From Candidatus Microgenomates bacterium (lineage in GTDB: Bacteria > Patescibacteriota > Microgenomatia > UBA8517 > JACQJR01): DNA of 64,000 nt. This document shows positions 19,312-29,317 of this stretch, piece after piece. The translations under genes and the position numbers were made by a program. The notes under the pieces were generated by a model that was not told where the DNA came from, did no database searches, and worked only from the letters and a program-made list of their open reading frames with translations. Where the stretch lies: positions 241,132-305,131 of the forward strand of contig JACQJR010000001.1 of NCBI GenBank assembly GCA_016204995.1, in the 5' to 3' direction. The stretch's first letter is position 1. Each line of letters starts with the position of its first letter.

Positions 19312-21045
19312 TTAGTTCACGCGATATATAACCACTTCTTGATTTTCAAATATGTTAGTTAGCCCTAATTGGCCCTCGCCTAGACGAAAACGTTGGCCAA
19401 AAACCGGTGTTTGATTTAATACCAGATAGAGATAATGAATTTTGTTATCAGCCAAGAATTTTTGCACCTCTTCCTGATTAAGACTATCAAAAGGCAGCAT
19501 TGATTTCTCCCGTCTGTTTCTCCAATCAAAACCGGTAATATTTAAATTAATTTCATCTTCCAGATAAGTGGGATGTTGGGAGAAGGCTGACACATAGGCA
19601 CTAGAGGCATATAGATAAAGCGGCCTAGGAGGATTATTGACCGCCAGTTCTGCTTTATATTCATCAAAAGGATAAGTTAAAACCACGCCTTGCGGTTGCT
19701 TTTCCAAAAATTTGAGAGCCGCTAGCTCCTGGTGGGAAATTTTAGCCGGCGGCCGCATTGGCAAATAACTAAGGCTCAAAGTACCAATCGTGGTCGACAA
19801 AGTTAATAAAACTACTAAAATAATAAGCCAGGTTTTTTGTTGAGCCAACCAAATTCCGGATAATATGGACATCACAAAAAGTGAATAGTAAAAAAATTGA
19901 ATTGTATTCCAAGGGGTGCCGGATTGCAAAAAAAACATGGGCAAAATTATTCCCAATGAGGCCATCACTAATAAAAATAAATCTATCTGGCTAAATTTTC
20001 TCCATAATTTATTCTTGATGATTCCATATACTCCCACCACCCTAGTTCCCATATTACCCACTAAAAATATTAAAAATGCTATAAAATAAGCCGGAATAAG
20101 CTTAAGAAAAATATGGCCAGTTTTATAATTCATTAATGCCTCATAAAATCTGGGCCAGCCAAATCTATCCGATACCGCCATCATGGTTTCCAAAAACCAG
20201 AAAGGCTGGAAAACGATCATTTTTTGTGAACCGCTATTTAAGGGCAAAAAAAGTAGCATGGATAAAACTGCTGATCCGCCAAATATAGATAAAAATGTAA
20301 ATTTACCACTTTTAATTAATTGATAGATACCAATTACCAGAAGACCTGCTAAAGCCAAAATACCAGCATAAATTTTAATTTCTGCCAGCAAACCAAAAAA
20401 AATAATTGCCAATGCTAAATGCCAAATGCTAAATTTGTTTTTGAGTTTTAAAATTAAAATTGCGCCCGAGAGAAGCAGAACTAACGACATGGCAAACGGT
20501 GGATTAATCAATGTGGAAATAGATTGCTGCGACCAAAAAAGTGATTCTCCGCCAATTTGTTTATTACGAATTAAAGTCACAATCCAACCAAAATCTCCCG
20601 CAAAATAGACAAAAAAAGTGGCCCATAAGGCCTCACGGGAAGAATTTCGCCATAACATTACAAATCTATAAGTCAGCCAACCAACCAAAACCGCCAAAAG
20701 CGTTGGTAAGATTTGAAAATAAAGTGTAATGGCAGGGATTTGTGTTAATTTATGAATCCAAGCTAGTATTAAATCAAAGCCAATGTGATAGTTGCGAATA
20801 TTTTCCCCGGAAAAAATCGGCATTTCCCAAGAACCGCGAGATAAACTATTAATCAAGGCAAGATGCCAGACTCCATCATGACCATTCGGCCCCCAAAAAC
20901 CCATCCCAAAAGGATAAATCAAACCGCTTTTGACCATGGTTAAACTCCAACTTAAAGAGCCCAAGAAAATAACTAACAGAATAGATAAATTATTTTTTCT
21001 TAAAAGTGGCATAAATAGTTGTAAAATCTCGCCAAATTTGGCCAC
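19312..21045 (-). CDS. polytopic membrane protein, function unknown (possibly Wzy-like polymerase/ligase)
   Basis: 577 aa, >10 hydrophobic segments plus C-terminal soluble domain; located immediately downstream of wzx-like gene; no diagnostic motif recognised. Confidence 0.35.
   Translation of the reverse strand: MAKFGEILQLFMPLLRKNNLSILLVIFLGSLSWSLTMVKSGLIYPFGMGFWGPNGHDGVWHLALINSLSRGSWEMPIFSGENIRNYHIGFDLILAWIHKLTQIPAITLYFQILPTLLAVLVGWLTYRFVMLWRNSSREALWATFFVYFAGDFGWIVTLIRNKQIGGESLFWSQQSISTLINPPFAMSLVLLLSGAILILKLKNKFSIWHLALAIIFFGLLAEIKIYAGILALAGLLVIGIYQLIKSGKFTFLSIFGGSAVLSMLLFLPLNSGSQKMIVFQPFWFLETMMAVSDRFGWPRFYEALMNYKTGHIFLKLIPAYFIAFLIFLVGNMGTRVVGVYGIIKNKLWRKFSQIDLFLLVMASLGIILPMFFLQSGTPWNTIQFFYYSLFVMSILSGIWLAQQKTWLIILVVLLTLSTTIGTLSLSYLPMRPPAKISHQELAALKFLEKQPQGVVLTYPFDEYKAELAVNNPPRPLYLYASSAYVSAFSQHPTYLEDEINLNITGFDWRNRREKSMLPFDSLNQEEVQKFLADNKIHYLYLVLNQTPVFGQRFRLGEGQLGLTNIFENQEVVIYRVN
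20409..20434. repeat. 13-bp direct repeat CAATGCTAAATGC/CAAATGCTAAATT in CDS
   Basis: followed by TTTTTGAGTTTTAAAATTAAAATT; within 19312..21045. Confidence 0.5.
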
Positions 21046-22564
21046 CCAATAAAATATGAAGCATGGCTATATAAGATAACAAACCTACTATTACTAAAAT
21101 AATTACTCCCAGCCAATTTAAGGTAATAAGATTACCAGTTATAAACATCACCAAAGCCATGCCAATACTAGCTGTCAAAGGATAGCCTACGCTTTCCAAT
21201 AAAACTACATTGACAAAACGTTTACTCCACACAATTGCCACAATTGAACTTATTCCCACTAACATAAAACCTAATGCCGCCCCATTAATAGAATAGCGGC
21301 TAGCCAGCAAAGGAACAAAAATCCATGTTAAAACAGTCCACATCACCATCAAGCGAAATGTAACGGCAATTTTACCGATACTGTTAAGCATATTAGTTAA
21401 AGGCGTGGAGACCGCTGCAAAAGCCGAGTTAACACTGATGAAAGCCAAAGCCAAAAGAGCCGGCTGCCATTGGGCGTATTTGGGAATTAAATGGGTTAAA
21501 GGTTCAGAAACAAACACCAAACCGACCAAAGCCGGAAAGACCAGCAAACAGATAAAGAAAAGTGAACGCGAGACCGCATTGGCTAGCTCTCTTTTCTCAT
21601 GCTGCATCCGGGAAAAAGCCGGAAAAGTCACTTTAATCACCTGGTCCATAAAAAATCGTAGCGGTGCTTGCGCCCATTTTTGGGCCCAACCCAAAAGACC
21701 GATACCGGCCGGGCCGATAATACCGCCTAAGACTAAGGTCATACCATCATCCTTGACCATCGCCAGCATAGTATTAGCCTGATAAGGCAAACCAAATTTT
21801 AATAATCCCCCTAAATATTGCCTATTCCATAAAAATCCCGGCTGCCAGGGCCGCAAAATATAAATTATCACTACTCCCACTATGCCCCGAGCTACCACCG
21901 CCACTGTAAAACTAGTAATACCAAAGCCCTGCCAGGCTAAAATTACGGCTATACTGTAAAAAACAATCGTCTCGGCAATTTGGGGAATAATTAATTTGTT
22001 AAATAACAATTCCCGTTCCAGTAAGACCGAGGGAATAGTTTTTAAAGAGGATAAAAAGAGAGAAAATGTTAAAGCCCACAGCAAGTATACCGAAGGCTGG
22101 GAAAGTTTATACCAGTTCTGAAAAAGGGGAGTTAAAGAAAAAATTAGAATAATTACTCCTAATACCAATATCTGTTGTACTGTAAAAACAGATTTTAATT
22201 CGCGCTTATCCAGCCGGTCTTTTTTTTGAATTAAAGCTGCGGCCAAGCCGATATCAGAAAAATAGGCAAAAAAGTTAATGACTGCTGAAACCAAAAAGAA
22301 AACTCCAAATTGAGTTGGAGTTAAAAAAATTGTTAGTAAAAATGTAGCCAGTAACGCTATTACCTGAAGAATAAAAGTCCGGCCGGTTAAAGCCACTACT
22401 CCCTTAACTGCCCGTCTCTTAACAGTCTCCAGAGATATTTCCTCGGTAGGACCCGTGCTGAGCCCAGCCGAAGCATCCAGATGTTCGGCAGCAGTAATCC
22501 CCACCCCTAAATTGTAGCAGAAATCCGCATTACACCATACCTTTAATTTGTTAAAATTATTCAT
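20990..22564 (-). CDS. wzx: Wzx-like oligosaccharide flippase (MOP superfamily polysaccharide biosynthesis protein)
   Basis: 524 aa, 12-14 TM; 'TIFLTPTQFGVFFLVSAVINFFAYFSDIGLAAALIQKKD' typical Wzx/RfbX N-terminal region; first ~45 aa (GC-richer) may be 5' UTR rather than coding. Confidence 0.7.
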   Translation of the reverse strand: MNNFNKLKVWCNADFCYNLGVGITAAEHLDASAGLSTGPTEEISLETVKRRAVKGVVALTGRTFILQVIALLATFLLTIFLTPTQFGVFFLVSAVINFFAYFSDIGLAAALIQKKDRLDKRELKSVFTVQQILVLGVIILIFSLTPLFQNWYKLSQPSVYLLWALTFSLFLSSLKTIPSVLLERELLFNKLIIPQIAETIVFYSIAVILAWQGFGITSFTVAVVARGIVGVVIIYILRPWQPGFLWNRQYLGGLLKFGLPYQANTMLAMVKDDGMTLVLGGIIGPAGIGLLGWAQKWAQAPLRFFMDQVIKVTFPAFSRMQHEKRELANAVSRSLFFICLLVFPALVGLVFVSEPLTHLIPKYAQWQPALLALAFISVNSAFAAVSTPLTNMLNSIGKIAVTFRLMVMWTVLTWIFVPLLASRYSINGAALGFMLVGISSIVAIVWSKRFVNVVLLESVGYPLTASIGMALVMFITGNLITLNWLGVIILVIVGLLSYIAMLHILLGGQIWRDFTTIYATFKKK

Positions 22565-22980
22565 TGAGAAGAAAAATAAAGAAACATTCTAGAAAAATAT
22601 TATTTCCAGGAAAACCTATAATCAAGGAATGGTTGCATAGTCACAAAAGGACATTTTACCTTAACACAGAACAGCTTGATAGAATTTCTTTTTCAATTCT
22701 AAAAGATGAAAATGAGAAAATAAAAGAAATTCAAAATGTTTCTTATGAAATCAATATAAATGGAAAATGGGTTAGGATAGTAAGATATGATGATCATAGT
22801 GGAACTGGATCACTTCACAGACATACAAAATTTTCATTTAGTAGCCTTAAAGAAATAATAGAATCACTTCCCTGGATCAAAGGAGACAAAAATCAACAAT
22901 TAACACAGGCTTGTAATGATATTAAGGAAAATTATGAGGAGTTCAAAAATGAATTTACAAAAAATTCCGGGCTTGACTAG
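22564..22980 (+). CDS. hypothetical protein (defence-island ORF, no ATG start)
   Basis: 138-aa ORF begins with TTG and contains no internal Met; possible TTG start at ~22633 after AAGGA; no recognisable domain ('RIVRYDDHSGTGSLHRH'). Confidence 0.3.
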   Translation: MRRKIKKHSRKILFPGKPIIKEWLHSHKRTFYLNTEQLDRISFSILKDENEKIKEIQNVSYEININGKWVRIVRYDDHSGTGSLHRHTKFSFSSLKEIIESLPWIKGDKNQQLTQACNDIKENYEEFKNEFTKNSGLD

Positions 22981-23030
22981 TATTAATCAAAAATTTACAG
23001 TATATTTGTATTAAGGGTGTAAAATAAGAC

Positions 23031-23285
23031 ATGGGTACAAAAACACAAACCGCTAAAAATATTGAATTGACACATAAACTGATCGAGTATCTATTGCGTG
23101 GAAAAAACGTACCAGACCTACCGGAGGATGTATCTTTTGTTCCATTCTCAAAGACAGATAAGAAACTTAATAAAGAAAATGACAAATTACTTAAATCTAT
23201 CTATCAAGAAGGAAAACGCGTTGCAAAAGCAGAGGAATCAAAAACAAGCAAGGGTTCTTGGGAAATAACTCCAGTTAATTTCTAA
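23031..23285 (+). CDS. hypothetical small charged protein
   Basis: 84-aa ORF, Lys/Glu-rich, no motif recognised; co-directional with 22564..22980. Confidence 0.3.
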   Translation: MGTKTQTAKNIELTHKLIEYLLRGKNVPDLPEDVSFVPFSKTDKKLNKENDKLLKSIYQEGKRVAKAEESKTSKGSWEITPVNF

Positions 23286-23543
23286 TAACCGTTAAGCTGG
23301 ATGAAAAAACAGCCAATTTTACATCCATTAATTTACATTACCCCGAATACTACCCGAAGTCAAGAGAACTAAAATGAGGTTCTGCAGACATTTAATTTCT
23401 TCTCAAAATATTCCAACTAAGACAAGTGATATATCAGAAGACCAAATAAAACAAGGACTCTTAAAATCCGCCGCCAACACTCTCTCGGCCGCACAATTTG
23501 TTGTAAGTTTCTAAACATAAAAATAGGTAATATTTAGATATAT

Positions 23544-24638
23544 TTACTTAAAAATCTTTATTAAAGTTTCTGCTAAATTAGTTTTTCTACCATCTCTTGG
23601 AAAAATTTCCCTAATCGTATTTGGGAAGAACCCTTCAACTGCGTTCCAAATTTTAACACCGTTATTATCAATTTCACTCAAAGCTCCTGGTAAATATGGA
23701 TATTTATGTGTGATCCTAGCCTGAAAGAGTTCAGGAGATTCAGGAGAAATAATATACAATTTTAATTTTTTACTATCTATTGCATTAACAAGACATTCAT
23801 TTATATGCTCATCACGAAATCCATAACCAACCAACAATAACCTTACCTCTTCTTGATTTAAAGATTTCTTAAATTCTTGGAAATAAAAATTTAGTAAGGG
23901 CTCTTTTTCAATATCGGACTTTTTATTCTTGCCTATTATCATTCTGCTAGTACCATCACTTGATACCCAACCTAAAGAACCATGTAACTTCATGTACAAA
24001 ATATTGTGCTGCTTCTTAACACTCTCTAATTCTGTGACAAGTTCAACTTCTGAAAATCTATTAAGCTCATCGTGGTTAGGTAATATATGTGGATCTCTGT
24101 TTGAGTATGATATTTTGTACCCGCCACATTGCTTTAATCTCTCTTGAGAAAACCATTTAGTTTTTGAAATAAATGGTTGCCAGCCAAATTTTTGTTCAAA
24201 AAATAAATCTTGGTTGAGAGTGAAACAAACTCCTACCCGCTCTTCATTGAAGAAAAACAAACTCAAAAAATCCTTAAGTTCTTCCTGGTTAACCCCCCAG
24301 GAATCAATGATTTGATTTTCTCCTTGTCCTATTATTAGTTGCATCGAAATGTATGTTTCGATAATTATCTTTTCAAATTTAGTTTTATCATCAGATGAAT
24401 ATCCGTCACCTAATATTATTTCGCTAAATATATTCTCAAAATCAAACTTTTTCTCCGAATTTTTGAATAATTCTTTAGCTTTGGTTAACTGATTAAGATC
24501 AGGATTATTAAAAATTTTTACCCACATCTCCCTAGCAAGGAATCCACCAAAATTAGCTGTAAAACCGGCACCGAAAAGTAGCATATTTTTTCTATAGTTT
24601 AAATCCATGCAAGTTTTATTTACGCTGCAACCTTCCAT
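23544..24638 (-). CDS. SIR2-like (SIR2_2 family) protein, putative NAD+-consuming defence effector
   Basis: 'MLLFGAGFTANFGG' (GAGxS-like N-terminus), 'FTLNQDLFFE' (TTNYD-like, Asn), 'KLHGSLGW' (HGS His), 'LLLVGYGFRDEHI' – the four hallmark blocks of PF13289; likely start at internal Met 24608. Confidence 0.6.
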   Translation of the reverse strand: MEGCSVNKTCMDLNYRKNMLLFGAGFTANFGGFLAREMWVKIFNNPDLNQLTKAKELFKNSEKKFDFENIFSEIILGDGYSSDDKTKFEKIIIETYISMQLIIGQGENQIIDSWGVNQEELKDFLSLFFFNEERVGVCFTLNQDLFFEQKFGWQPFISKTKWFSQERLKQCGGYKISYSNRDPHILPNHDELNRFSEVELVTELESVKKQHNILYMKLHGSLGWVSSDGTSRMIIGKNKKSDIEKEPLLNFYFQEFKKSLNQEEVRLLLVGYGFRDEHINECLVNAIDSKKLKLYIISPESPELFQARITHKYPYLPGALSEIDNNGVKIWNAVEGFFPNTIREIFPRDGRKTNLAETLIKIFK

Positions 24639-24967
24639 GCTACAGAATACTATTAAATAGTATCAGAAATCTATCTCTGAGATATGATAGTTCTAAAGAG
24701 ATTTATGCTGCTTGAAATAACACTTTTGGCTTGGATTACCTTAGTTTTGAAATATTCAACCAAGAAGTTGGAATTAAATTGAAAGAAACTACCAACTCTT
24801 TTTGCTTTCCCTCCAAACATATCTATAACCAGGAGGTGCTGGTGGCTTTGATGGTTTAGGCACACTAGGTGACCGAGGAGGCCTGGGTGGTCTAGGAGCT
24901 GTCGGAGCTTTTGGCGGTCGAGGACCCTATATGGGATTGGAATAATCTTTAGCCAGCTTCCATACCA

Positions 24968-25213
24968 TTAGTAGCTACCTCCTCCATCAAGTTCTTGACT
25001 AGGTGAAACTGAACCAGAAACATTTGAAGCAGTCCCAGCTGAAACAGAGATAATTCCGCCTACAAATCCTTGCTGTTTTTCAGTAGGGAGGTCTGTATGT
25101 TTCTCACAAACATTGTTTAAACACGACCAGATACCTAAAGTTTGAATAATTAGACTACCACACAAGGTACAAACTAAAACCCCAGATTTTGTTCTGTTAG
25201 TCCAATTAAGCAT
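24968..25213 (-). CDS. hypothetical small membrane protein
   Basis: 81 aa, one TM helix 'GVLVCTLCGSLIIQTLGIWSCL', Gly/Ser-rich tail. Confidence 0.25.
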   Translation of the reverse strand: MLNWTNRTKSGVLVCTLCGSLIIQTLGIWSCLNNVCEKHTDLPTEKQQGFVGGIISVSAGTASNVSGSVSPSQELDGGGSY

Positions 25214-25386
25214 AAAATTATTAAAAAGATGCCAAGTAAAAACTTAGGCTAGTATTACATTAGCATTATAATACAATCGGCACTAAAAAACTAGATAGGT
25301 AAATACTAATGACTTCAATTATTTTGATTCTTACCTTCAGCTACGTTCAGAAGAAATCTGACGTAGGCAGTAGAGTTTATAAACTA

Positions 25387-25411
25387 ACTGTTCTCCTCTA
25401 AGAGAAGAACA
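25387..25411 (-). terminator. putative hairpin terminator downstream of R-M operon
   Basis: CTGTTCTCCTC-taa-GAGAAGAACAG (11-bp stem, 1 mismatch) ~20 nt after REase stop; flanking U-tract weak. Confidence 0.3.
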
Positions 25412-25429
25412 GTAAAACAAAAAATATTT

Positions 25430-25948
25430 TTATGGAATCGGGAGTCCTAATTTCTGTAGGGGTAAATAATTAAAATAATATTGACAACCTACATCGATTA
25501 TATAATTAAGGGTATCTTTATATTGTGGTTTTCTGAACCAATCACTAAGAATATAAATATACTCAACCTCTATATTAAGTGAGGCCATTAACTTTTTATA
25601 TTGTTTCTTTTTGAAATCACAAGTTTGTAACTTCTCATCCACCGAGCCACCCACATTTTGAATCTTTAGTTCAATAACAAACAATGTATTATTAACGATC
25701 ACATATATTGCTTCATCGGGTAAAAGTTTTTTAGAAATTATCTTTGTATAATTAACCCCTTTAGCAGCTAAAAAATTATAAAGAGAATGTTTTTTATAAC
25801 TTCTTGCCACCTCCTCATCTTGATAGTAGATAACCTTATCTTTCACTGAATATCCTTCAGTCTTGCTAAGTAAGGAAATGATATCTTTTTCTTTCTCAAA
25901 ATTAAGACCAGTTAAGGTATTTCCTCCTCCTTTTCCACCTTTAATCAT
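25430..25948 (-). CDS. Type II restriction endonuclease (PD-(D/E)xK fold)
   Basis: 172 aa; 'LPDEAIYVIVNNTLFVIELK' = PD...ExK catalytic motif; start ATG overlaps stop of upstream methyltransferase (ATGA). Confidence 0.5.
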   Translation of the reverse strand: MIKGGKGGGNTLTGLNFEKEKDIISLLSKTEGYSVKDKVIYYQDEEVARSYKKHSLYNFLAAKGVNYTKIISKKLLPDEAIYVIVNNTLFVIELKIQNVGGSVDEKLQTCDFKKKQYKKLMASLNIEVEYIYILSDWFRKPQYKDTLNYIIDVGCQYYFNYLPLQKLGLPIP

Positions 25949-26811
25949 ATAGATAATCCCTGATTTATTATAAATTCTTTTCCTTGTTTTACCGGATCAT
26001 ACATTGAAAGCTGTTTATTTTTCAAGTTTTTCTCCAATTCTTCAAATCTTTTTATTGATAAATCTAGATATTTTCTTTCGGTATCAATTCCAATAAAGTT
26101 CCGATCCAAAAGATAAGCTGCAATTCCAGTTGTTGAACTTCCAGTAAATGGATCAACTATTAAATCACTTTTATTTGTACTCGCAAGAATAATTCTTTTA
26201 AGTAAATCTTCTGGCTTTTGCGTTGGATGTTTGCCAAATTTTTTTTCTATGGGTTTAGGAGTTCCTATCGCCCAAACTGAACGCATTTGTAGGCCTGGTT
26301 TTTTTAATTGATCCCCTAACCAATTGCCATTTTTCATTAAATTATAATTAAAGACGTGCTTTGTTTCTTTGTCTTTACGTGCCCATATCAATGTCTCATG
26401 GCTAGCAGTAAAATAACGACAACTTAAATTAGGGGAGGCATTTGGCTTGAACCAAGCAATATCATTGAGTATATGGTATCCTAGCGACTGCAAAGCATGT
26501 CCACACTGATAAATCGAATGATAAGTGCCACTAACCCAAAGAGTACCATGGGGTTTCAAAACTCTCCGGCACGCCTCCATCCATTTATAATGGAAATCAT
26601 AATCATCTTTGAATCCCTTACTCTTATCCCAATCTCCTTTATTAACACTAACCATCCGTCCTGCATGAACAGTTATGCCTCCGTTTGAAAGATTATAAGG
26701 GGGATCGGCAAAAATCATATCCACTGAACTCTCGGGAAACTCAGCCAACAAATCTAGACAATTAGCCTGATAAAGTTTAAATTTAGGCTTTTCGTAGTAT
26801 GATTTTATCAT
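25945..26811 (-). CDS. DNA methyltransferase, beta-class N6-adenine/N4-cytosine (PF01555-like)
   Basis: 288 aa; motif IV 'IFADPPYNL' precedes motif I 'VDPFTGSSTTGIAA' (beta permutation); DPPY suggests m6A. Confidence 0.85.
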   Translation of the reverse strand: MIKSYYEKPKFKLYQANCLDLLAEFPESSVDMIFADPPYNLSNGGITVHAGRMVSVNKGDWDKSKGFKDDYDFHYKWMEACRRVLKPHGTLWVSGTYHSIYQCGHALQSLGYHILNDIAWFKPNASPNLSCRYFTASHETLIWARKDKETKHVFNYNLMKNGNWLGDQLKKPGLQMRSVWAIGTPKPIEKKFGKHPTQKPEDLLKRIILASTNKSDLIVDPFTGSSTTGIAAYLLDRNFIGIDTERKYLDLSIKRFEELEKNLKNKQLSMYDPVKQGKEFIINQGLSI

Positions 26812-26944
26812 ATTTTATGAAAAAGTGTTATGAACTAGCATAAGTATTTTACCACAAATCTTGTAATATTTTTATGCAAATTTTTAAAAAAATTTTAGCC
26901 ACGAATTAAGTATAAATTAGCATCCCTTTGATATACATTTTTAT

Positions 26945-27016
26945 AGTTGACAGTTATTCCAGTCAACCTCAAAATAGCAGACGCGCGATTAAACTGATAA
27001 AAGGAGGTGAGAATAT
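26945..27016 (+). promoter_or_regulatory. putative sigma70-like promoter (TTGACA-N17-CAAAAT) within inverted repeat AGTTGAC/GTCAAC, followed by strong SD AAGGAGGTG
   Basis: TTGACA at 26947-26952, inverted repeat arm GTCAAC at 26962-26967, SD at 27002-27010. Confidence 0.35.
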
Positions 27017-27124
27017 ATGCCATACAGAAGTTCTAAAACGGGTAAATATGTTAAAAAATCATACGCACAAAAGCATCCAACAGTTACTGAAAGAGAGAGA
27101 AATAAAAAGAATAATAGGCATTGA
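27017..27124 (+). CDS. small basic peptide (35 aa) with canonical SD
   Basis: ATG 8 nt after AAGGAGGTG; 'MPYRSSKTGKYVKKSYAQKHPTVTERERNKKNNRH'; below the 60-aa cut-off of the ORF track. Confidence 0.3.
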   Translation: MPYRSSKTGKYVKKSYAQKHPTVTERERNKKNNRH

Positions 27125-27183
27125 ATCGTCTAGTGGACAAGCAGGCAATGGGTGGACTAAAGTGGAATTAGACTGCATCTTAT

Positions 27184-27855
27184 ATGCCTCAATTTAAATT
27201 ATCTCCCTCAGACTTCGCCTACCTTTATGAGGATTGTAAATTTTGCTATGTTTTAAAAGTTAAAAGCGGCGTTGCTTTACCCAGTATGCCGATGCCGAGA
27301 GTTTTCTCCGCCATAAATACCAGACTTCAAGGTAATCTTATCGGGAAAAGCCTTAAAAGCTTATCTAAAAATCTACCGGAGGGAGAAGTTATATCACAGG
27401 AAGGCTTTGTGGAATCAGTTGTTATTCCCGGCACATCAGTTTACATCAAAGGGAAATATGATTTGCTGGTTAAAAATCCTGACGGCACGCATATGGTGGT
27501 GGATTTAAAAATCAGCCAGCCGGGAGAAGATAAAATAGAAAAATATAAAACGCAGTTGGCTGCTTATAAATATGCCTTTGAAAATCCAAAAAACGGCCAG
27601 CCGATTAAAATTACCAAACTTGGGCTTTTGATTTTTTATCCAGATCAAGTCTCATTCCAAAATGATACTGCCATACTTCATTTTCCTCCTGTTTGGCTGG
27701 AAATTCCCATTGATGATGAATACTTTTTAACATTTATTAAAGCTATTGATGAACTTCTGGCTGGTCCTGAACCAGGAGTCAGCGTAACTTGCAGATGGTG
27801 TGTTTATAGAAAATATTTTGAGCCCCAAGCTCTTGTGGAAGATATTCCTTTTTAG
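27184..27855 (+). CDS. Cas4/RecB-like PD-(D/E)XK nuclease domain protein with 2+2 Cys
   Basis: 223 aa; 'GKYDLLV' (motif II), 'VVDLKIS' (motif III), 'TQLAAYKYA' (QhxxY), N-terminal 'CKFC' and C-terminal 'CRWC' possible Fe-S ligands. Confidence 0.5.
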   Translation: MPQFKLSPSDFAYLYEDCKFCYVLKVKSGVALPSMPMPRVFSAINTRLQGNLIGKSLKSLSKNLPEGEVISQEGFVESVVIPGTSVYIKGKYDLLVKNPDGTHMVVDLKISQPGEDKIEKYKTQLAAYKYAFENPKNGQPIKITKLGLLIFYPDQVSFQNDTAILHFPPVWLEIPIDDEYFLTFIKAIDELLAGPEPGVSVTCRWCVYRKYFEPQALVEDIPF

Positions 27856-27859
27856 GAAT

Positions 27860-29317
27860 TTATTGAATCTTCGCCACTATGGATTTGATTTCAGTGGAAA
27901 GAATATCTTTCGGAATACCGCCTAAATCTTCATAGAAAACTTTGAGGTTGAAATCGTGATATAACAATTGCAGGGCGTCGGAATTATTTAAAATATAAGC
28001 AGCTTGGCGGGAACTACCTCCCCAATCGCCAGAAATTTTCGGGTAACTGGGATCATTTACGAAATAAACTATGGCACCCTTGGGTAAAGTTGGATAAGTA
28101 GTTAAAACGTTATTAATTAATTTCTCGGCAATCCTACCACGAACTGCCGCCGGATAAGTTCGATCACCCAATTTAATTGACGTCACTGACAACACCACCA
28201 AAGAAGTAATTAAAATCACTTTCAATAAATTCATTTTATTAGAGAAAATTAGATAACCTATCACTCCCCAAAAAGCCGGCAGGGCTGGTGCTAAATAGTA
28301 AGTTGATTTATGAAGTGGAAGTAAAATTACCGGCGAGATAGCTATGGGAAACCAAAATAGTAGAAAGATAAATTTTTTGTCTAGTAAAGCTGATTTATTT
28401 TTTCGCCACAAGTTAATTATAAAAATAATTATTAATCCGATTGATAAGAAAAATGCCGGGAAAATAATTTTAAAATAATCTCCCCAAAATTTCATTAAGT
28501 TTGGATTAAGCGATAACTTGGGGCCAATAAAATCAATCAGCATTTCCGGCATACCCGCCGCCCACACAGTGTACCAGGCAAAGGAATTAATTATTTTTGG
28601 CAGAGAAAATACTGCCTGGTATTGAGCATCTTTTTGTAAAAGACCAATTTTGACAAAATCCAGATAGATAAAAATTAACAGTATCAGGAAAAAAGGCCAG
28701 ACCATTTTGATATTTTTTCCTTTAATCCAAACCATTCCCAGCATCAAGAAAGGCGTGGTAATTGCCAACTCATGCGAGGCTAGTGATAGTAGAAAAACAA
28801 CTAGCGATAAAATCCACCATTTTATTTTTCCCTCTTGGAGATATTGCCACCAGCAAATTAGAGTTAAGAGCATGAACATGGTGACTCCCAAAGCTTGAAT
28901 TCCACCGGCCAAATAATAAAGCAGTGCTACATTCGCAGCAGTTATCCTAAAGAAAAAAGCTGTGAATAGCGATAAAAACTTTTTGGCAAAAATTTTCTGC
29001 ATTAATGTATAAACCAGTACTGTATTAATTAAATGAATGGATATTGACAGTAGGCGAAATGGTAAATGATTAAGACCGAATAATTGATAATAAATATTAA
29101 ATAATCCTTCCCGGAAAACAGGCCGGTAAAAGGCATAGCCTCGCTCGGAAAAACTGGGAAAGCCAAATAAATTGATAAAACTTTCTAGCTTGCCATCAGT
29201 TAAACTGGCTTTAAAATGAAAAAAATCATCCTGGGAAAAATAAACTCCCAAAACGGGAGAATAAATCCACAAAACAAAAAGGCAGACTAAAATAAGAGGC
29301 CACCACCTACTTAACAT
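27860..29317 (-). CDS. polytopic membrane protein, putative GT-C fold glycosyltransferase
   Basis: 485 aa; 'FSQDDFFHF...GYAFYRPV' acidic first loop; many TM helices. Confidence 0.45.
   Translation of the reverse strand: MLSRWWPLILVCLFVLWIYSPVLGVYFSQDDFFHFKASLTDGKLESFINLFGFPSFSERGYAFYRPVFREGLFNIYYQLFGLNHLPFRLLSISIHLINTVLVYTLMQKIFAKKFLSLFTAFFFRITAANVALLYYLAGGIQALGVTMFMLLTLICWWQYLQEGKIKWWILSLVVFLLSLASHELAITTPFLMLGMVWIKGKNIKMVWPFFLILLIFIYLDFVKIGLLQKDAQYQAVFSLPKIINSFAWYTVWAAGMPEMLIDFIGPKLSLNPNLMKFWGDYFKIIFPAFFLSIGLIIIFIINLWRKNKSALLDKKFIFLLFWFPIAISPVILLPLHKSTYYLAPALPAFWGVIGYLIFSNKMNLLKVILITSLVVLSVTSIKLGDRTYPAAVRGRIAEKLINNVLTTYPTLPKGAIVYFVNDPSYPKISGDWGGSSRQAAYILNNSDALQLLYHDFNLKVFYEDLGGIPKDILSTEIKSIVAKIQ

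What the first reader, a model, noticed from the sequence alone, without database searches (positions are those of the whole stretch)
22564..27860. Defence island (~5.3 kb) interrupting the glycosylation locus
- Strand polarity breaks between the wzx-like gene and a GT-C gene.
- The insert carries a SIR2_2-like gene, a Type II M+R pair, a Cas4/RecB-like nuclease, a tiny SD-driven basic peptide and two small orphan ORFs lacking ATG starts.
- There is no integrase or transposase, no tRNA and no obvious direct repeats at the borders.
- The combination of a small standalone SIR2 with a Cas4-like nuclease and an R-M pair is not a named defence system.
- It could be a new multi-gene module.
Basis: partly seen in the sequence, partly recalled or inferred. 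Interest (0 to 1): 0.65.

Follow-up and report, generated by a model that had tools for sequence, protein, structure and literature searches.

The report
Mosaic defence island, not one system
A 5.3 kb block of phage-defence-type genes has been inserted into a conserved sugar-coat operon of a tiny Microgenomates bacterium, but its genes are separately inherited units (a restriction-modification pair, a lone SIR2 enzyme with a small partner, a widely conserved repair-type nuclease), not a new multi-gene defence system.

Summary
Window 22565-27859 carries a SIR2_2 gene, an overlapping Type II methyltransferase/endonuclease pair, a Cas4-like PD-(D/E)XK nuclease and a 35-aa basic peptide. It has no integrase, tRNA, border repeats or CRISPR array.

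Two sister contigs have the GT-C gene directly upstream of wzx (17 bp apart in L175). So the block is an insertion relative to them.

The proposed new multi-gene module is not supported:
- About 133 loci with SIR2 relatives contain no close relative of this nuclease. One (L082) has a 25%-identical PDDEXK_1 nuclease beside SIR2. The 48 best loci share no neighbour.
- 86 loci with the nuclease (60-80% identical) contain no SIR2.
- DNA similarity to other loci stops at single-gene borders.
- The M-R pair recurs as a pair in Neisseria gonorrhoeae and ends in its own hairpin.

The nuclease is a strongly conserved Microgenomates gene, closest in fold to Cas4, AdnAB and EXO5, and sits in the cell-division cluster in its closest relative. 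In roughly 10 of 35 informative loci, different R-M types or a reverse transcriptase lie 5' of it. That suggests a defence hotspot.

The one conserved linkage is an 81-aa Cys-rich ORF upstream of SIR2, seen in 3 of 5 close loci.

Verdict: an ordinary mosaic defence island. Interest is low to moderate.

The parts
20990..22564 (-). Left flank: Wzx-type oligosaccharide flippase. This is a conserved Microgenomates gene and not part of the insert.
   Evidence: Pfam Polysacc_synt_3 at 1.7e-51. Homologues are 57-67% identical in Microgenomates/Daviesbacteria. Downstream gene order is conserved in L174-L176.
22564..22980 (+). DUF7718 protein. The ORF starts with TTG. An in-frame TTG at codon 24 would fit the domain start better. 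It probably forms a two-gene cassette with the next gene. Function unknown.
   Evidence: PF24839 at 6e-12, above the cut-off. A 50-bp gap separates it from the next + strand ORF. No homologue in any fetched locus or in viral contigs.
23031..23285 (+). 84-aa protein with a weak DUF5647 match.
   Evidence: PF18882 at 3.3e-5, 24 bits against a cut-off of 27. No PADLOC, PHROG or NCBIfam assignment.
23544..24608 (-). Stand-alone SIR2_2 protein of 354 aa, predicted to use NAD+. The ORF extends to 24638.
   Evidence: PF13289 at 1.6e-8. PADLOC SIR2 models up to 2e-14. The motifs GAGF..NFGG, TLNQD and KLHGS are invariant or near-invariant in 30 homologues. AF2 model pLDDT 83.6. Best PDB matches are the SIR2 of SIR2-HerA, E about 1e-7. 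P0001 is 100% identical, covers 97% of the query and is 354 aa long.
24968..25213 (-). 81-aa Cys-rich (CxxC-x12-C-x4-C) small protein, read as a zinc-ribbon-like fold by inference. It lies upstream of SIR2 on the same strand. It is the only partner conserved with SIR2 in the close clade.
   Evidence: Homologous 80-aa ORFs (49-51% identical, 33 invariant columns including 4 Cys) lie upstream of SIR2 in L233 and L234. They are absent from L082 and L083. No family match.
25387..25413 (-). Terminator-like hairpin (12-bp stem) starting 17 nt downstream of the endonuclease stop codon. It separates the R-M operon from the ORF81-SIR2 unit.
   Evidence: This is a consensus scan only and the function is inferred.
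25430..25948 (-). 172-aa PD-(D/E)XK endonuclease, the R subunit of a Type II R-M pair.
   Evidence: 846 homologues. P77 is invariant and D78, E93, K95 and Q97 are conserved in at least 90% of 38 sequences. 31 of 38 family members match PF20472 PDDEXK_11. Its start overlaps the methyltransferase stop by 4 nt. The same M-then-R order occurs in N. gonorrhoeae.
25945..26811 (-). Beta-class N6/N4 DNA methyltransferase (DPPY motif), the M subunit.
   Evidence: PF01555 at 1.6e-58. PADLOC MTase_II at 1.3e-99. The CcrM model scores 255 bits against a cut-off of 830, so it is not CcrM. FADPPYNL is visible in the translation.
27017..27124 (+). 35-aa basic peptide (MPYRSSKTGKYVKKSYAQKHPTVTERERNKKNNRH) behind a strong Shine-Dalgarno sequence, 60 nt upstream of the nuclease gene.
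   Evidence: A promoter-like TTGACA-17-CAAAAT lies at 26947-26975. No Pfam match and no homologue in any fetched locus.
27184..27855 (+). Cas4/EXO5/AdnAB-type PD-(D/E)XK nuclease of 223 aa, with CxxC...CxxC and a C-terminal DIPF. It belongs to a strongly conserved Microgenomates family and is not a mobile defence gene.
   Evidence: PF12705 at 2.8e-11. The best 120 homologues listed are 64-80% identical. Alignment A2 has 77% mean column identity. AF2 model pLDDT 81.5. Best PDB matches are Cas4 SSO0001, AdnAB, EXO5, MGME1 and RecE. It sits in the dcw cluster in its closest relative L170.
27860..29317 (-). Right flank: PMT_2-type GT-C glycosyltransferase, convergent with the nuclease gene with a 4-nt gap. 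Not part of the insert.
   Evidence: PF13231 at 1.2e-7. Its orthologues lie directly upstream of wzx in L175 and L176.

Best explanation
The segment 22565-27859 is a lineage-specific insertion into a conserved Microgenomates envelope-glycosylation operon, between the GT-C and wzx genes. It is a mosaic of separately inherited units that most likely act independently.

1. **Type II restriction-modification operon (M then R, overlapping by 4 nt, with its own terminator-like hairpin).** The beta-class methyltransferase marks host DNA. The 172-aa PD-(D/E)XK enzyme cuts unmarked incoming DNA.
2. **A small Cys-rich ORF followed by a stand-alone SIR2.** SIR2 has all its NAD+-binding and catalytic motifs. 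By analogy with defence sirtuins it is inferred to be an NAD+-depleting abortive-infection effector. The small protein is a possible regulator or sensor.
3. **A DUF7718/DUF5647 pair of unknown role.**
4. **A small basic peptide plus a Cas4/EXO5-like nuclease.** The nuclease is a strongly conserved, probably housekeeping DNA-end-processing enzyme of Microgenomates. Its 5' side repeatedly accumulates different R-M and other defence genes across the group, which suggests a defence hotspot.

Shown: the gene identities, the insertion relative to sister contigs, the lack of conserved linkage and the mosaic ancestry. Inferred: the biochemical activities, the defence role of SIR2 and the housekeeping role of the nuclease.
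For: **Insertion**
- L175 and L176 have the GT-C orthologue (53% and 59% identical) directly upstream of wzx.
- Gene order downstream of wzx is identical to the window.

**No SIR2-nuclease linkage**
- 80 genomic SIR2 loci contain no nuclease or endonuclease homologue.
- No neighbour is shared by more than 3 of the 48 best loci. Their neighbours are heterogeneous by Pfam and include no HerA.
- 133 SIR2 loci, viral ones included, have one PD-(D/E)XK neighbour in total.
- 86 nuclease loci contain no SIR2, wzx or GT-C homologue.

**Mosaic ancestry**
- blastn similarity to other loci stops at gene borders: SIR2 to L082, L083 and L233; the nuclease to L170; the methyltransferase to L003.

**R-M is an independent cassette**
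- N. gonorrhoeae has the same methyltransferase (51% identical) immediately followed by the same endonuclease family.
- A relative of the methyltransferase in L003 (phmmer 428 bits; 71% DNA identity) is instead paired with a DpnII-family enzyme.
- A hairpin follows the R gene.

**The nuclease is conserved and sits beside variable defence genes**
- The best 120 homologues listed are 64-80% identical, which is more than Wzx homologues reach (57-67%).
- Only three distant (31-33% identical) relatives turned up in viral contigs.
- In the closest relative it lies between murI and murD. In 5 other non-redundant loci it follows ftsA-ftsZ.
- Upstream genes include Type I, Type ISP, MmeI-like, MunI, HinfI and C5 R-M systems, and a reverse transcriptase with a retron-type PADLOC match.
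- Downstream genes are mainly housekeeping.
- PADLOC families hit at 1e-10: 378 upstream against 28 downstream.

**ORF81-SIR2**
- The arrangement is conserved in 3 of 5 close-clade loci.
Against: - L082, a close SIR2 relative (65% identical), has a distant Cas4-like PDDEXK_1 gene 5 bp downstream of SIR2, with the same CxxC...CxxC layout. A loose SIR2-nuclease association in the close clade is therefore not fully excluded. Only five close-clade contexts were available, three of them under 3 kb.
- The nuclease lies inside the insert rather than at a conserved 'home' position. It may have moved together with its defence cargo, which a purely passive hotspot model does not explain.
- More distant SIR2 homologues sit mostly among metabolic genes. 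The defence role of this SIR2 family is therefore unproven.
- No activity was tested.
- The recognition sequences of the methyltransferase and endonuclease are unknown.
Confidence: 0.75

Rival explanations
1. SIR2, the Cas4-like nuclease and the R-M pair form one new integrated defence system. For example, nuclease- or restriction-generated DNA ends would activate SIR2.
For: - The genes lie within 4.3 kb of each other in the window.
- L082 has SIR2 directly followed by a distant PDDEXK_1 nuclease.
- SIR2 relatives lie beside R-M genes in L003 (DpnII type) and L083 (Type ISP, 4-nt overlap).
- L010 has a gene matching the window methyltransferase 72 bp after SIR2.
Against: - No conserved neighbour in the 48 best SIR2 loci.
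- No SIR2 in 86 nuclease loci.
- One PD-(D/E)XK neighbour in 133 SIR2 loci.
- The units are on different strands and are separated by a terminator-like hairpin.
- Each gene's nearest relative sits in a different context.
- The R-M types beside SIR2 differ each time, which fits defence-island clustering rather than a fixed system.
Confidence: 0.05
2. The Cas4-like nuclease is functionally coupled to whatever R-M or defence cargo lies 5' of it. It might process restriction-generated DNA ends as RecBCD/AddAB do elsewhere, or promote capture of foreign DNA next to itself. On this reading the nuclease and its cargo move as a unit, and the adjacency is not a passive hotspot.
For: - Defence or R-M genes lie immediately upstream of the nuclease in the window, L084-87, L088, L170 and L171, and in about 10 of 35 non-redundant loci with more than 3 kb of upstream sequence.
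- The -1 gene is on the same strand in 51 of 63 loci.
- In the window the nuclease lies inside the insert, together with the cargo.
- The fold is that of end-processing nucleases: AdnAB, EXO5, Cas4.
- The C-terminal (D/E)(I/L)PF resembles the SSB tip.
Against: - Many loci have only housekeeping genes upstream, for example ftsA-ftsZ in 5.
- The cargo types are unrelated to each other.
- Nothing recognisably recombinase-like is associated.
- Adjacency of defence genes to a conserved gene is the usual signature of an integration hotspot.
- No functional test was possible.
Confidence: 0.15
3. The SIR2 gene is not a defence gene. It would instead be an accessory protein deacylase or ADP-ribosyltransferase with a regulatory role, which happens to sit beside an R-M system.
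For: - Neighbours of the more distant homologues (24-40% identical) are mostly metabolic or housekeeping genes.
- No sensor domain and no HerA, pAgo or TIR partner.
- NCBIfam SIR2_antiphage scores 40 bits against a cut-off of 500.
Against: - Sequence and fold are closest to defence sirtuins of SIR2-HerA, not to classical sirtuins.
- The family is patchily spread over many phyla and occurs on viral or prophage-like contigs.
- Close relatives sit in defence islands or beside R-M genes.
Confidence: 0.2

Closest known systems
Defence islands / integration hotspots next to conserved genes (for example R-M-bearing genomic islands reported in Patescibacteria, PMC12455944)
   Same: - A compact cluster of unrelated defence-type genes sits between conserved genes.
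- The content at the same site varies between relatives: empty in L175, a 96-aa ORF in L176, a different methyltransferase in L174.
- R-M systems dominate.
   Different: - No integrase, tRNA or border repeats.
- The insert sits inside an otherwise co-directional glycosylation operon.
- It contains a gene (the Cas4-like nuclease) that is itself conserved across the group.
Type II restriction-modification systems with a beta-class N6_N4 methyltransferase (PADLOC MTase_II)
   Same: - Separate M and R genes with overlapping reading frames.
- DPPY methyltransferase and PD-(D/E)XK endonuclease.
- The pair recurs in a distant phylum (N. gonorrhoeae).
   Different: - The endonuclease family (172 aa, PDDEXK_11-like) matches no named restriction-enzyme model in Pfam, PADLOC or NCBIfam.
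- The recognition site is unknown.
SIR2-HerA (Nezha / GAO_19) defence sirtuins
   Same: - Best sequence-profile matches (E 1e-13 to 4e-7) and fold matches (E about 1e-7, TM about 0.5) are to the SIR2 subunit.
- The NAD+-site motifs are intact.
   Different: - No HerA gene in the window or next to any of the 48 best relatives.
- PMC11514479 states that these systems need a second protein (HerA or pAgo).
- Here the only recurrent partner is an 81-aa Cys-rich ORF.
CRISPR-associated Cas4 and the repair nucleases EXO5 and AdnAB/AddB (Cys-cluster PD-(D/E)XK exonucleases)
   Same: - Same fold.
- PD-(D/E)XK core.
- Four conserved cysteines flank the domain.
   Different: - The Cys pattern is CxxC...CxxC. 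From my own knowledge the Cas4 pattern is C...CxxCx5C; this was not checked here.
- No cas genes or CRISPR array are present.
- The TIGR00372 model scores 30 bits against a cut-off of 65.
- It has a conserved C-terminal (D/E)(I/L)PF.
- It is highly conserved in one bacterial group and often lies beside cell-division genes.

Membership tests
Type II restriction-modification system | DNA methyltransferase with SAM-binding and catalytic (D/S)PPY motifs | tested here: met
   PF01555 at 1.6e-58 and PADLOC MTase_II at 1.3e-99. FADPPYNL and DPFTGSSTTG are visible in the translation.
Type II restriction-modification system | A separate adjacent endonuclease gene with an intact nuclease catalytic motif | tested here: met
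   The 172-aa ORF overlaps the M gene by 4 nt. P77 is invariant and D78, E93 and K95 are conserved in at least 90% of 38 homologues. 31 of 38 match PDDEXK_11.
Type II restriction-modification system | M and R are inherited together as a cassette | tested here: met
   N. gonorrhoeae has the M homologue (51% identical) followed within about 50 bp by the R homologue (43-59% identical, frameshifted).
Type II restriction-modification system | Matching methylation and cleavage specificity | not testable with these tools
   This needs methylome data or in vitro digestion.
SIR2-HerA (Nezha) | SIR2 NADase subunit of this fold | tested here: met
   Profile against PDB: 8yhx at 1.2e-13 and 8j4u at 6.9e-10. 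Foldseek: 8sxx and 8uae at about 2e-7.
SIR2-HerA (Nezha) | Adjacent HerA ATPase/helicase gene | tested here: not met
   No HerA in the island. No conserved neighbour in 48 loci and no HerA-type family among the 25 most frequent neighbour families.
Thoeris (ThsA SIR2-SLOG plus ThsB TIR) | SLOG domain fused to SIR2, and a TIR-domain partner gene | tested here: not met
   Only the SIR2_2 domain is found in a 354-aa protein. No TIR match in any island ORF.
DSR1/DSR2 defence sirtuins | Large single protein with an N-terminal SIR2 and a long C-terminal sensor region | tested here: not met
   The protein is 354 aa and the model is a single compact domain. The DSR2 fold match is weak (3e-3). The size criterion comes from my own knowledge of the family.
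Short pAgo SPARSA (SIR2-APAZ plus pAgo) | APAZ domain and an adjacent short Argonaute gene | tested here: not met
   The PADLOC Aga_SIR2 match covers only residues 204-314 (2e-14). No Argonaute match in the island.
CRISPR-associated Cas4 | Meets the Cas4 model cut-off and is linked to cas1/cas2 or a CRISPR array | tested here: not met
   TIGR00372 scores 30 bits against a cut-off of 65. No cas genes among the island ORFs. No arrays in the 64-kb window. None of the most frequent neighbour families in 86 loci is a Cas family.
Mobile genomic island (integrative element) | Integrase or recombinase, an attachment site at a tRNA or direct repeats at the borders | tested here: not met
   No recombinase family among the eight island ORFs scanned. 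No tRNA. Only chance-level repeats.

The most novel reading that the evidence does not exclude
Two readings remain open.

(a) The conserved Microgenomates Cas4/EXO5-like nuclease, with its SSB-tip-like (D/E)(I/L)PF C-terminus, is not just a passive landmark. It would work with, or help capture, the R-M and defence genes that recurrently sit 5' of it, and would move together with that cargo, as it appears to have done into this glycosylation operon.

(b) The 81-aa Cys-rich ORF plus the 354-aa SIR2 is a new minimal two-gene NAD+-depleting defence system that replaces HerA or pAgo with a tiny partner.
Probability: 0.15. Interest if true: 0.6.

Novelty: new member of a known kind. Interest (0 to 1): 0.3.

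Why it matters
As it stands, this is one more R-M-centred defence island in a CPR/Patescibacteria genome. That fits published reports that these small genomes rely on R-M systems carried on genomic islands. It removes a candidate 'new system' from the list.

Two by-products could matter.
- **A possible defence hotspot marker.** A strongly conserved Cas4/EXO5-like nuclease has R-M or other defence genes on its 5' side in roughly a third of informative loci. It could be used to search for defence hotspots in genomes that lack tRNA- or integrase-linked islands.
- **A small testable candidate.** The Cys-rich ORF plus SIR2 pair is cheap to test for partner-independent sirtuin immunity.

Tried and rejected
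- **Conserved partner of SIR2.** All-vs-all clustering of ORFs within 4 kb in 48 genome loci found nothing beyond a serine recombinase shared by 3 loci. A Pfam census of the neighbours at positions -2 to +2 was heterogeneous.
- **HerA, TIR, pAgo or Cas partners.** None found.
- **Cas4-like homologues near SIR2.** Searched in 133 loci. Only L082 has one, and it is distant.
- **SIR2, wzx or GT-C near the nuclease.** Searched in 86 loci. None found.
- **Naming the endonuclease.** PDB searches with the sequence and with the family profile gave nothing significant; NlaIV scored E 0.37. The phage collection gave no match. Plasmid records gave only unannotated Neisseria chromosomes.
- **DUF7718/DUF5647.** No hits in viral contigs, none in the fetched loci, and no papers mention either name. 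The pairing and function stay untested.
- **35-aa peptide.** No Pfam match and no homologue in the fetched loci.
- **Border repeats, tRNA, Rfam families and CRISPR arrays.** Nothing found.
- **dcw genes or a second nuclease copy in the window.** None. The 'home' site of the nuclease in this genome could therefore not be inspected.
- **SIR2 in the phage and plasmid collections.** No phage match and only three partial plasmid matches.

Full report
**Source and setting.** The window comes from a Candidatus Microgenomates (CPR/Patescibacteria) genome. The SIR2, nuclease and Wzx proteins are each 100% identical to NCBI proteins from one 609,565-bp contig. From 24 to 41978, almost every ORF of at least 110 aa is on the - strand; the three + strand exceptions overlap longer - strand ORFs. 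The flanking genes and their sister-contig orthologues are glycosyltransferase, GT-C/PMT_2, YfhO and Wzx-type genes.

**Checking the observation.** ORF listing and four HMM libraries confirm the gene content:
- DUF7718 (22564-22980, +).
- A weak DUF5647 match (23031-23285, +).
- SIR2_2 (23544-24608/24638, -).
- An 81-aa Cys-rich ORF (24968-25213, -).
- A 172-aa PD-(D/E)XK protein (25430-25948, -), overlapping by 4 nt an N6_N4 DNA methyltransferase (25945-26811, -).
- A 35-aa basic peptide behind AAAGGAGGTG (27017-27124, +).
- A PDDEXK_1/Cas4-like protein (27184-27855, +).

There is no tRNA and there are no meaningful border repeats. There is no CRISPR array, and none of the scanned island ORFs matches a recombinase family. 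GC content is only slightly lower than in the flanks. The description is therefore accurate. Two corrections apply. The TTG-start ORF at 22564 is a real family member. The TTG-start ORF at 26928 overlaps the peptide in another frame, has no significant family match and may be spurious.

**Is it an insertion?** Yes. Wzx homologues at 63-67% identity were traced to their contigs.
- In L175 a 480-aa gene ends 17 bp before wzx on the same strand. It is 53% identical over the full length to the window's GT-C gene (27860-29317).
- In L176 the 59%-identical GT-C orthologue is separated from wzx only by a 96-aa ORF. The next gene upstream is also orthologous.
- Downstream of wzx the order is the same as in the window: 577-aa protein, three GT2 genes, GT1, YfhO, PMT_2, a methyltransferase, GT2.
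- In L174 the same site holds a different N6_N4 methyltransferase on the opposite strand. This junction is therefore variable.
- The insert is tightly packed. The nuclease stop and the GT-C stop are 4 nt apart, and the DUF7718 ORF abuts the wzx start.

**Is it one system? SIR2.**
- The 354-aa protein belongs to a family of 330-350-aa stand-alone SIR2 proteins. GAGF..NFGG, TLNQD and KLHGS are invariant or near-invariant.
- Relatives occur in CPR lineages, Elusimicrobia, Nitrospira, Acidobacteria and many Proteobacteria, and on some viral or prophage-like contigs.
- In 80 genomic loci there is no homologue of the nuclease or the endonuclease.
- In the 48 best loci no neighbour within 4 kb is shared by more than three loci.
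- A Pfam census of their neighbours is heterogeneous and shows no HerA.
- The nearest solved structures are the SIR2 subunits of SIR2-HerA, by sequence profile (1e-13 to 4e-7) and by fold (about 1e-7, TM about 0.5).

Close relatives (62-68% identical) were examined one by one.
- L082: SIR2 sits in another defence island (SLFN-type helicase, DUF6602, AAA ATPase). It is followed by a PDDEXK_1 protein only 25% identical to the window's nuclease.
- L083: SIR2 overlaps by 4 nt a Type ISP R-M enzyme.
- L233 and L234: the gene upstream of SIR2 is an 80-aa homologue of the window's 81-aa ORF. It is 49-51% identical, with 33 invariant columns including CxxC-x12-C-x4-C.

So the only recurrent partner of this SIR2 clade is the small Cys-rich ORF, seen in 3 of 5 loci.

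**The Cas4-like nuclease.**
- This is the decisive point. The best 120 homologues listed are 64-80% identical and 214-277 aa long.
- The 20-sequence alignment has 77% mean column identity. Four cysteines are invariant (CxxC near the N-terminus, CxxC near the C-terminus), and there is a conserved C-terminal DIPF.
- That conservation exceeds the 57-67% seen for Wzx in the same group.
- Viral contigs hold only three distant relatives, 31-33% identical.
- The fold matches Cas4 SSO0001, the AdnAB nuclease domain, human EXO5, MGME1 and RecE. The Cas4 model cut-off is not reached and no cas genes or arrays are present.

**What surrounds the nuclease elsewhere.** In 86 loci (68 non-redundant) there is no SIR2, wzx or GT-C neighbour.
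- Closest relative L170 (80% identical): the gene lies in the cell-wall/division cluster, in the order MraY, MurI, [268-aa ORF plus MmeI-like R-M enzyme], nuclease, ArsR-like, MurD, FtsW, MurG.
- Five other non-redundant loci: it follows ftsA-ftsZ.
- Its 5' side is often occupied by unrelated defence genes:
  - HinfI-type R-M plus an HTH/reverse-transcriptase pair, with a retron-type PADLOC match.
  - MunI R-M with an HTH regulator.
  - Type I, Type ISP and Type III-like enzymes.
  - A SLFN-type helicase.
- Its 3' side is mostly housekeeping: IleRS-type synthetase, FtsK, FtsW, MreB, SAM synthetase.
- PADLOC families hit at 1e-10: 378 upstream against 28 downstream.
- About 10 of the 35 non-redundant loci with more than 3 kb upstream carry R-M genes there. 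This count is my hand tally and is approximate.

The window fits this pattern. The R-M pair and SIR2 lie on the 5' side of the nuclease gene.

**The R-M pair.**
- The methyltransferase is a beta-class N6_N4 enzyme with DPPY. It is related to CcrM-type enzymes but scores far below that model's cut-off.
- The 172-aa protein has 846 homologues. P77 is invariant and D78, E93, K95 and Q97 are conserved in at least 90% of aligned sequences. 31 of 38 members match PDDEXK_11.
- In Neisseria gonorrhoeae a 51%-identical methyltransferase is followed directly by a frameshifted homologue of the endonuclease. This is a mobile Type II cassette.
- In L003 a relative of the methyltransferase (phmmer 428 bits; 71% DNA identity) is paired instead with a DpnII-family enzyme and followed by a SIR2. 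This shows module shuffling.
- A 12-bp-stem hairpin follows the R gene in the window.

**Mosaic ancestry.** blastn of the island against the related loci gives matches that stop at gene borders. SIR2 matches L082, L083 and L233 (72%). The nuclease matches L170 (76%). The methyltransferase matches L003 (71%). Nothing else matches.

The best explanation is a mosaic of independent units:
- a Type II R-M operon;
- a small Cys-rich ORF plus a stand-alone SIR2, a candidate NAD+-depleting effector whose defence role is inferred and not shown;
- a DUF7718/DUF5647 pair of unknown role;
- a conserved, probably housekeeping, Cas4/EXO5-like nuclease that often has variable defence genes on its 5' side.

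**What remains open.**
- Why the nuclease lies inside the insert in this genome. It may have moved together with its cargo, or the region may have been rearranged.
- Whether its recurrent adjacency to R-M systems is functional.
- What ORF81 does for SIR2.

Published work reports R-M-bearing genomic islands in Patescibacteria (PMC12455944). It also reports that known SIR2 defence systems need a second protein (PMC11514479). The island is therefore ordinary in kind, and only the ORF81-SIR2 pair and the nuclease-anchored hotspot deserve follow-up.

Noticed in passing
window 27184-27855; loci L084-L171: The Cas4-like nuclease family ends in a conserved (D/E)(I/L)PF: EIPF in 18, DIPF in 15, ELPF in 4 and DLPF in 3 of the 68 non-redundant proteins. 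From my own knowledge, this resembles the acidic C-terminal tip of bacterial SSB (DDDIPF) that recruits repair and replication proteins. It hints at a housekeeping DNA-metabolism role.
   Followed up: partly
L084-L171, 5' side of the Cas4-like gene: Different R-M types (Type I, ISP, MmeI-like, MunI, HinfI, C5), an HTH/reverse-transcriptase pair and a SLFN-type helicase sit immediately upstream of the nuclease gene in many Microgenomates contigs. The downstream side is mostly housekeeping. This looks like a lineage-wide defence hotspot anchored on this gene.
   Followed up: partly
window 24968-25213 (-); L233:366-608; L234:321-563: An 80-81-aa protein with CxxC-x12-C-x4-C and a conserved Ser/Thr-rich acidic tail lies upstream of SIR2 in three close-clade loci. 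In L234 a 41-aa ORF overlapping it by ATGA lies between it and SIR2. The equivalent ORF is disrupted in L233 and absent from the window.
   Followed up: partly
window 24830-24950 (-): Between ORF81 and SIR2, a frame other than ORF81's encodes a proline-rich stretch (GPRPPKAPTAPRPPRPPRSPSVPKPSKPPAPPGYRYVW). It may be the remnant of a degraded gene. This spacer is 360 bp in the window against 135 bp in L233 and L234.
   Followed up: no
L174:2-1600 (-): In a third sister contig, the position just upstream of wzx is occupied by a 533-aa N6_N4 DNA methyltransferase on the opposite strand, cut off by the contig end. The GT-C/wzx junction is therefore itself a recurrently used insertion site.
   Followed up: partly
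L082:54-1657 and L171:3263-5824: A SLFN-g3-type helicase followed by a 232-aa protein (with an HNH-like motif in L082) appears near both the distant PDDEXK_1 gene of L082 and the Cas4-like gene of L171. The two pairs were not compared directly. They may be the same cargo shuffling between hotspots.
   Followed up: no
L003 and L027: SIR2 homologues in a Saccharibacteria contig and a Peribacteria contig lie near a serine recombinase, a second homologous gene pair that looks like a large terminase subunit (not family-scanned), and a further methyltransferase. This suggests prophage carriage of this SIR2 family.
   Followed up: no
L177:3001-3487 (N. gonorrhoeae NZ_CP119140.1, 10981-11467): The gonococcal homologue of the 172-aa endonuclease is split by a frameshift into two pieces, next to an apparently intact methyltransferase. 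It is probably an inactivated R-M system. The record is a 2.17-Mb chromosome filed as a plasmid.
   Followed up: no
window 22564-22633: The DUF7718 ORF's first possible start (TTG at 22564) shares a base with the wzx start codon on the other strand. An in-frame TTG at codon 24, preceded by AAGGAA, fits the Pfam domain start better and would give a 115-aa protein.
   Followed up: no
window 24-41978; L174-L176: The surrounding locus of about 40 kb (several GT-C/PMT_2/YfhO-type membrane glycosyltransferases, GT2/GT1 genes and Wzx) keeps its gene order in the three sister contigs whose Wzx is 63-67% identical. It looks like a conserved envelope-glycosylation operon of the group.
   Followed up: partly
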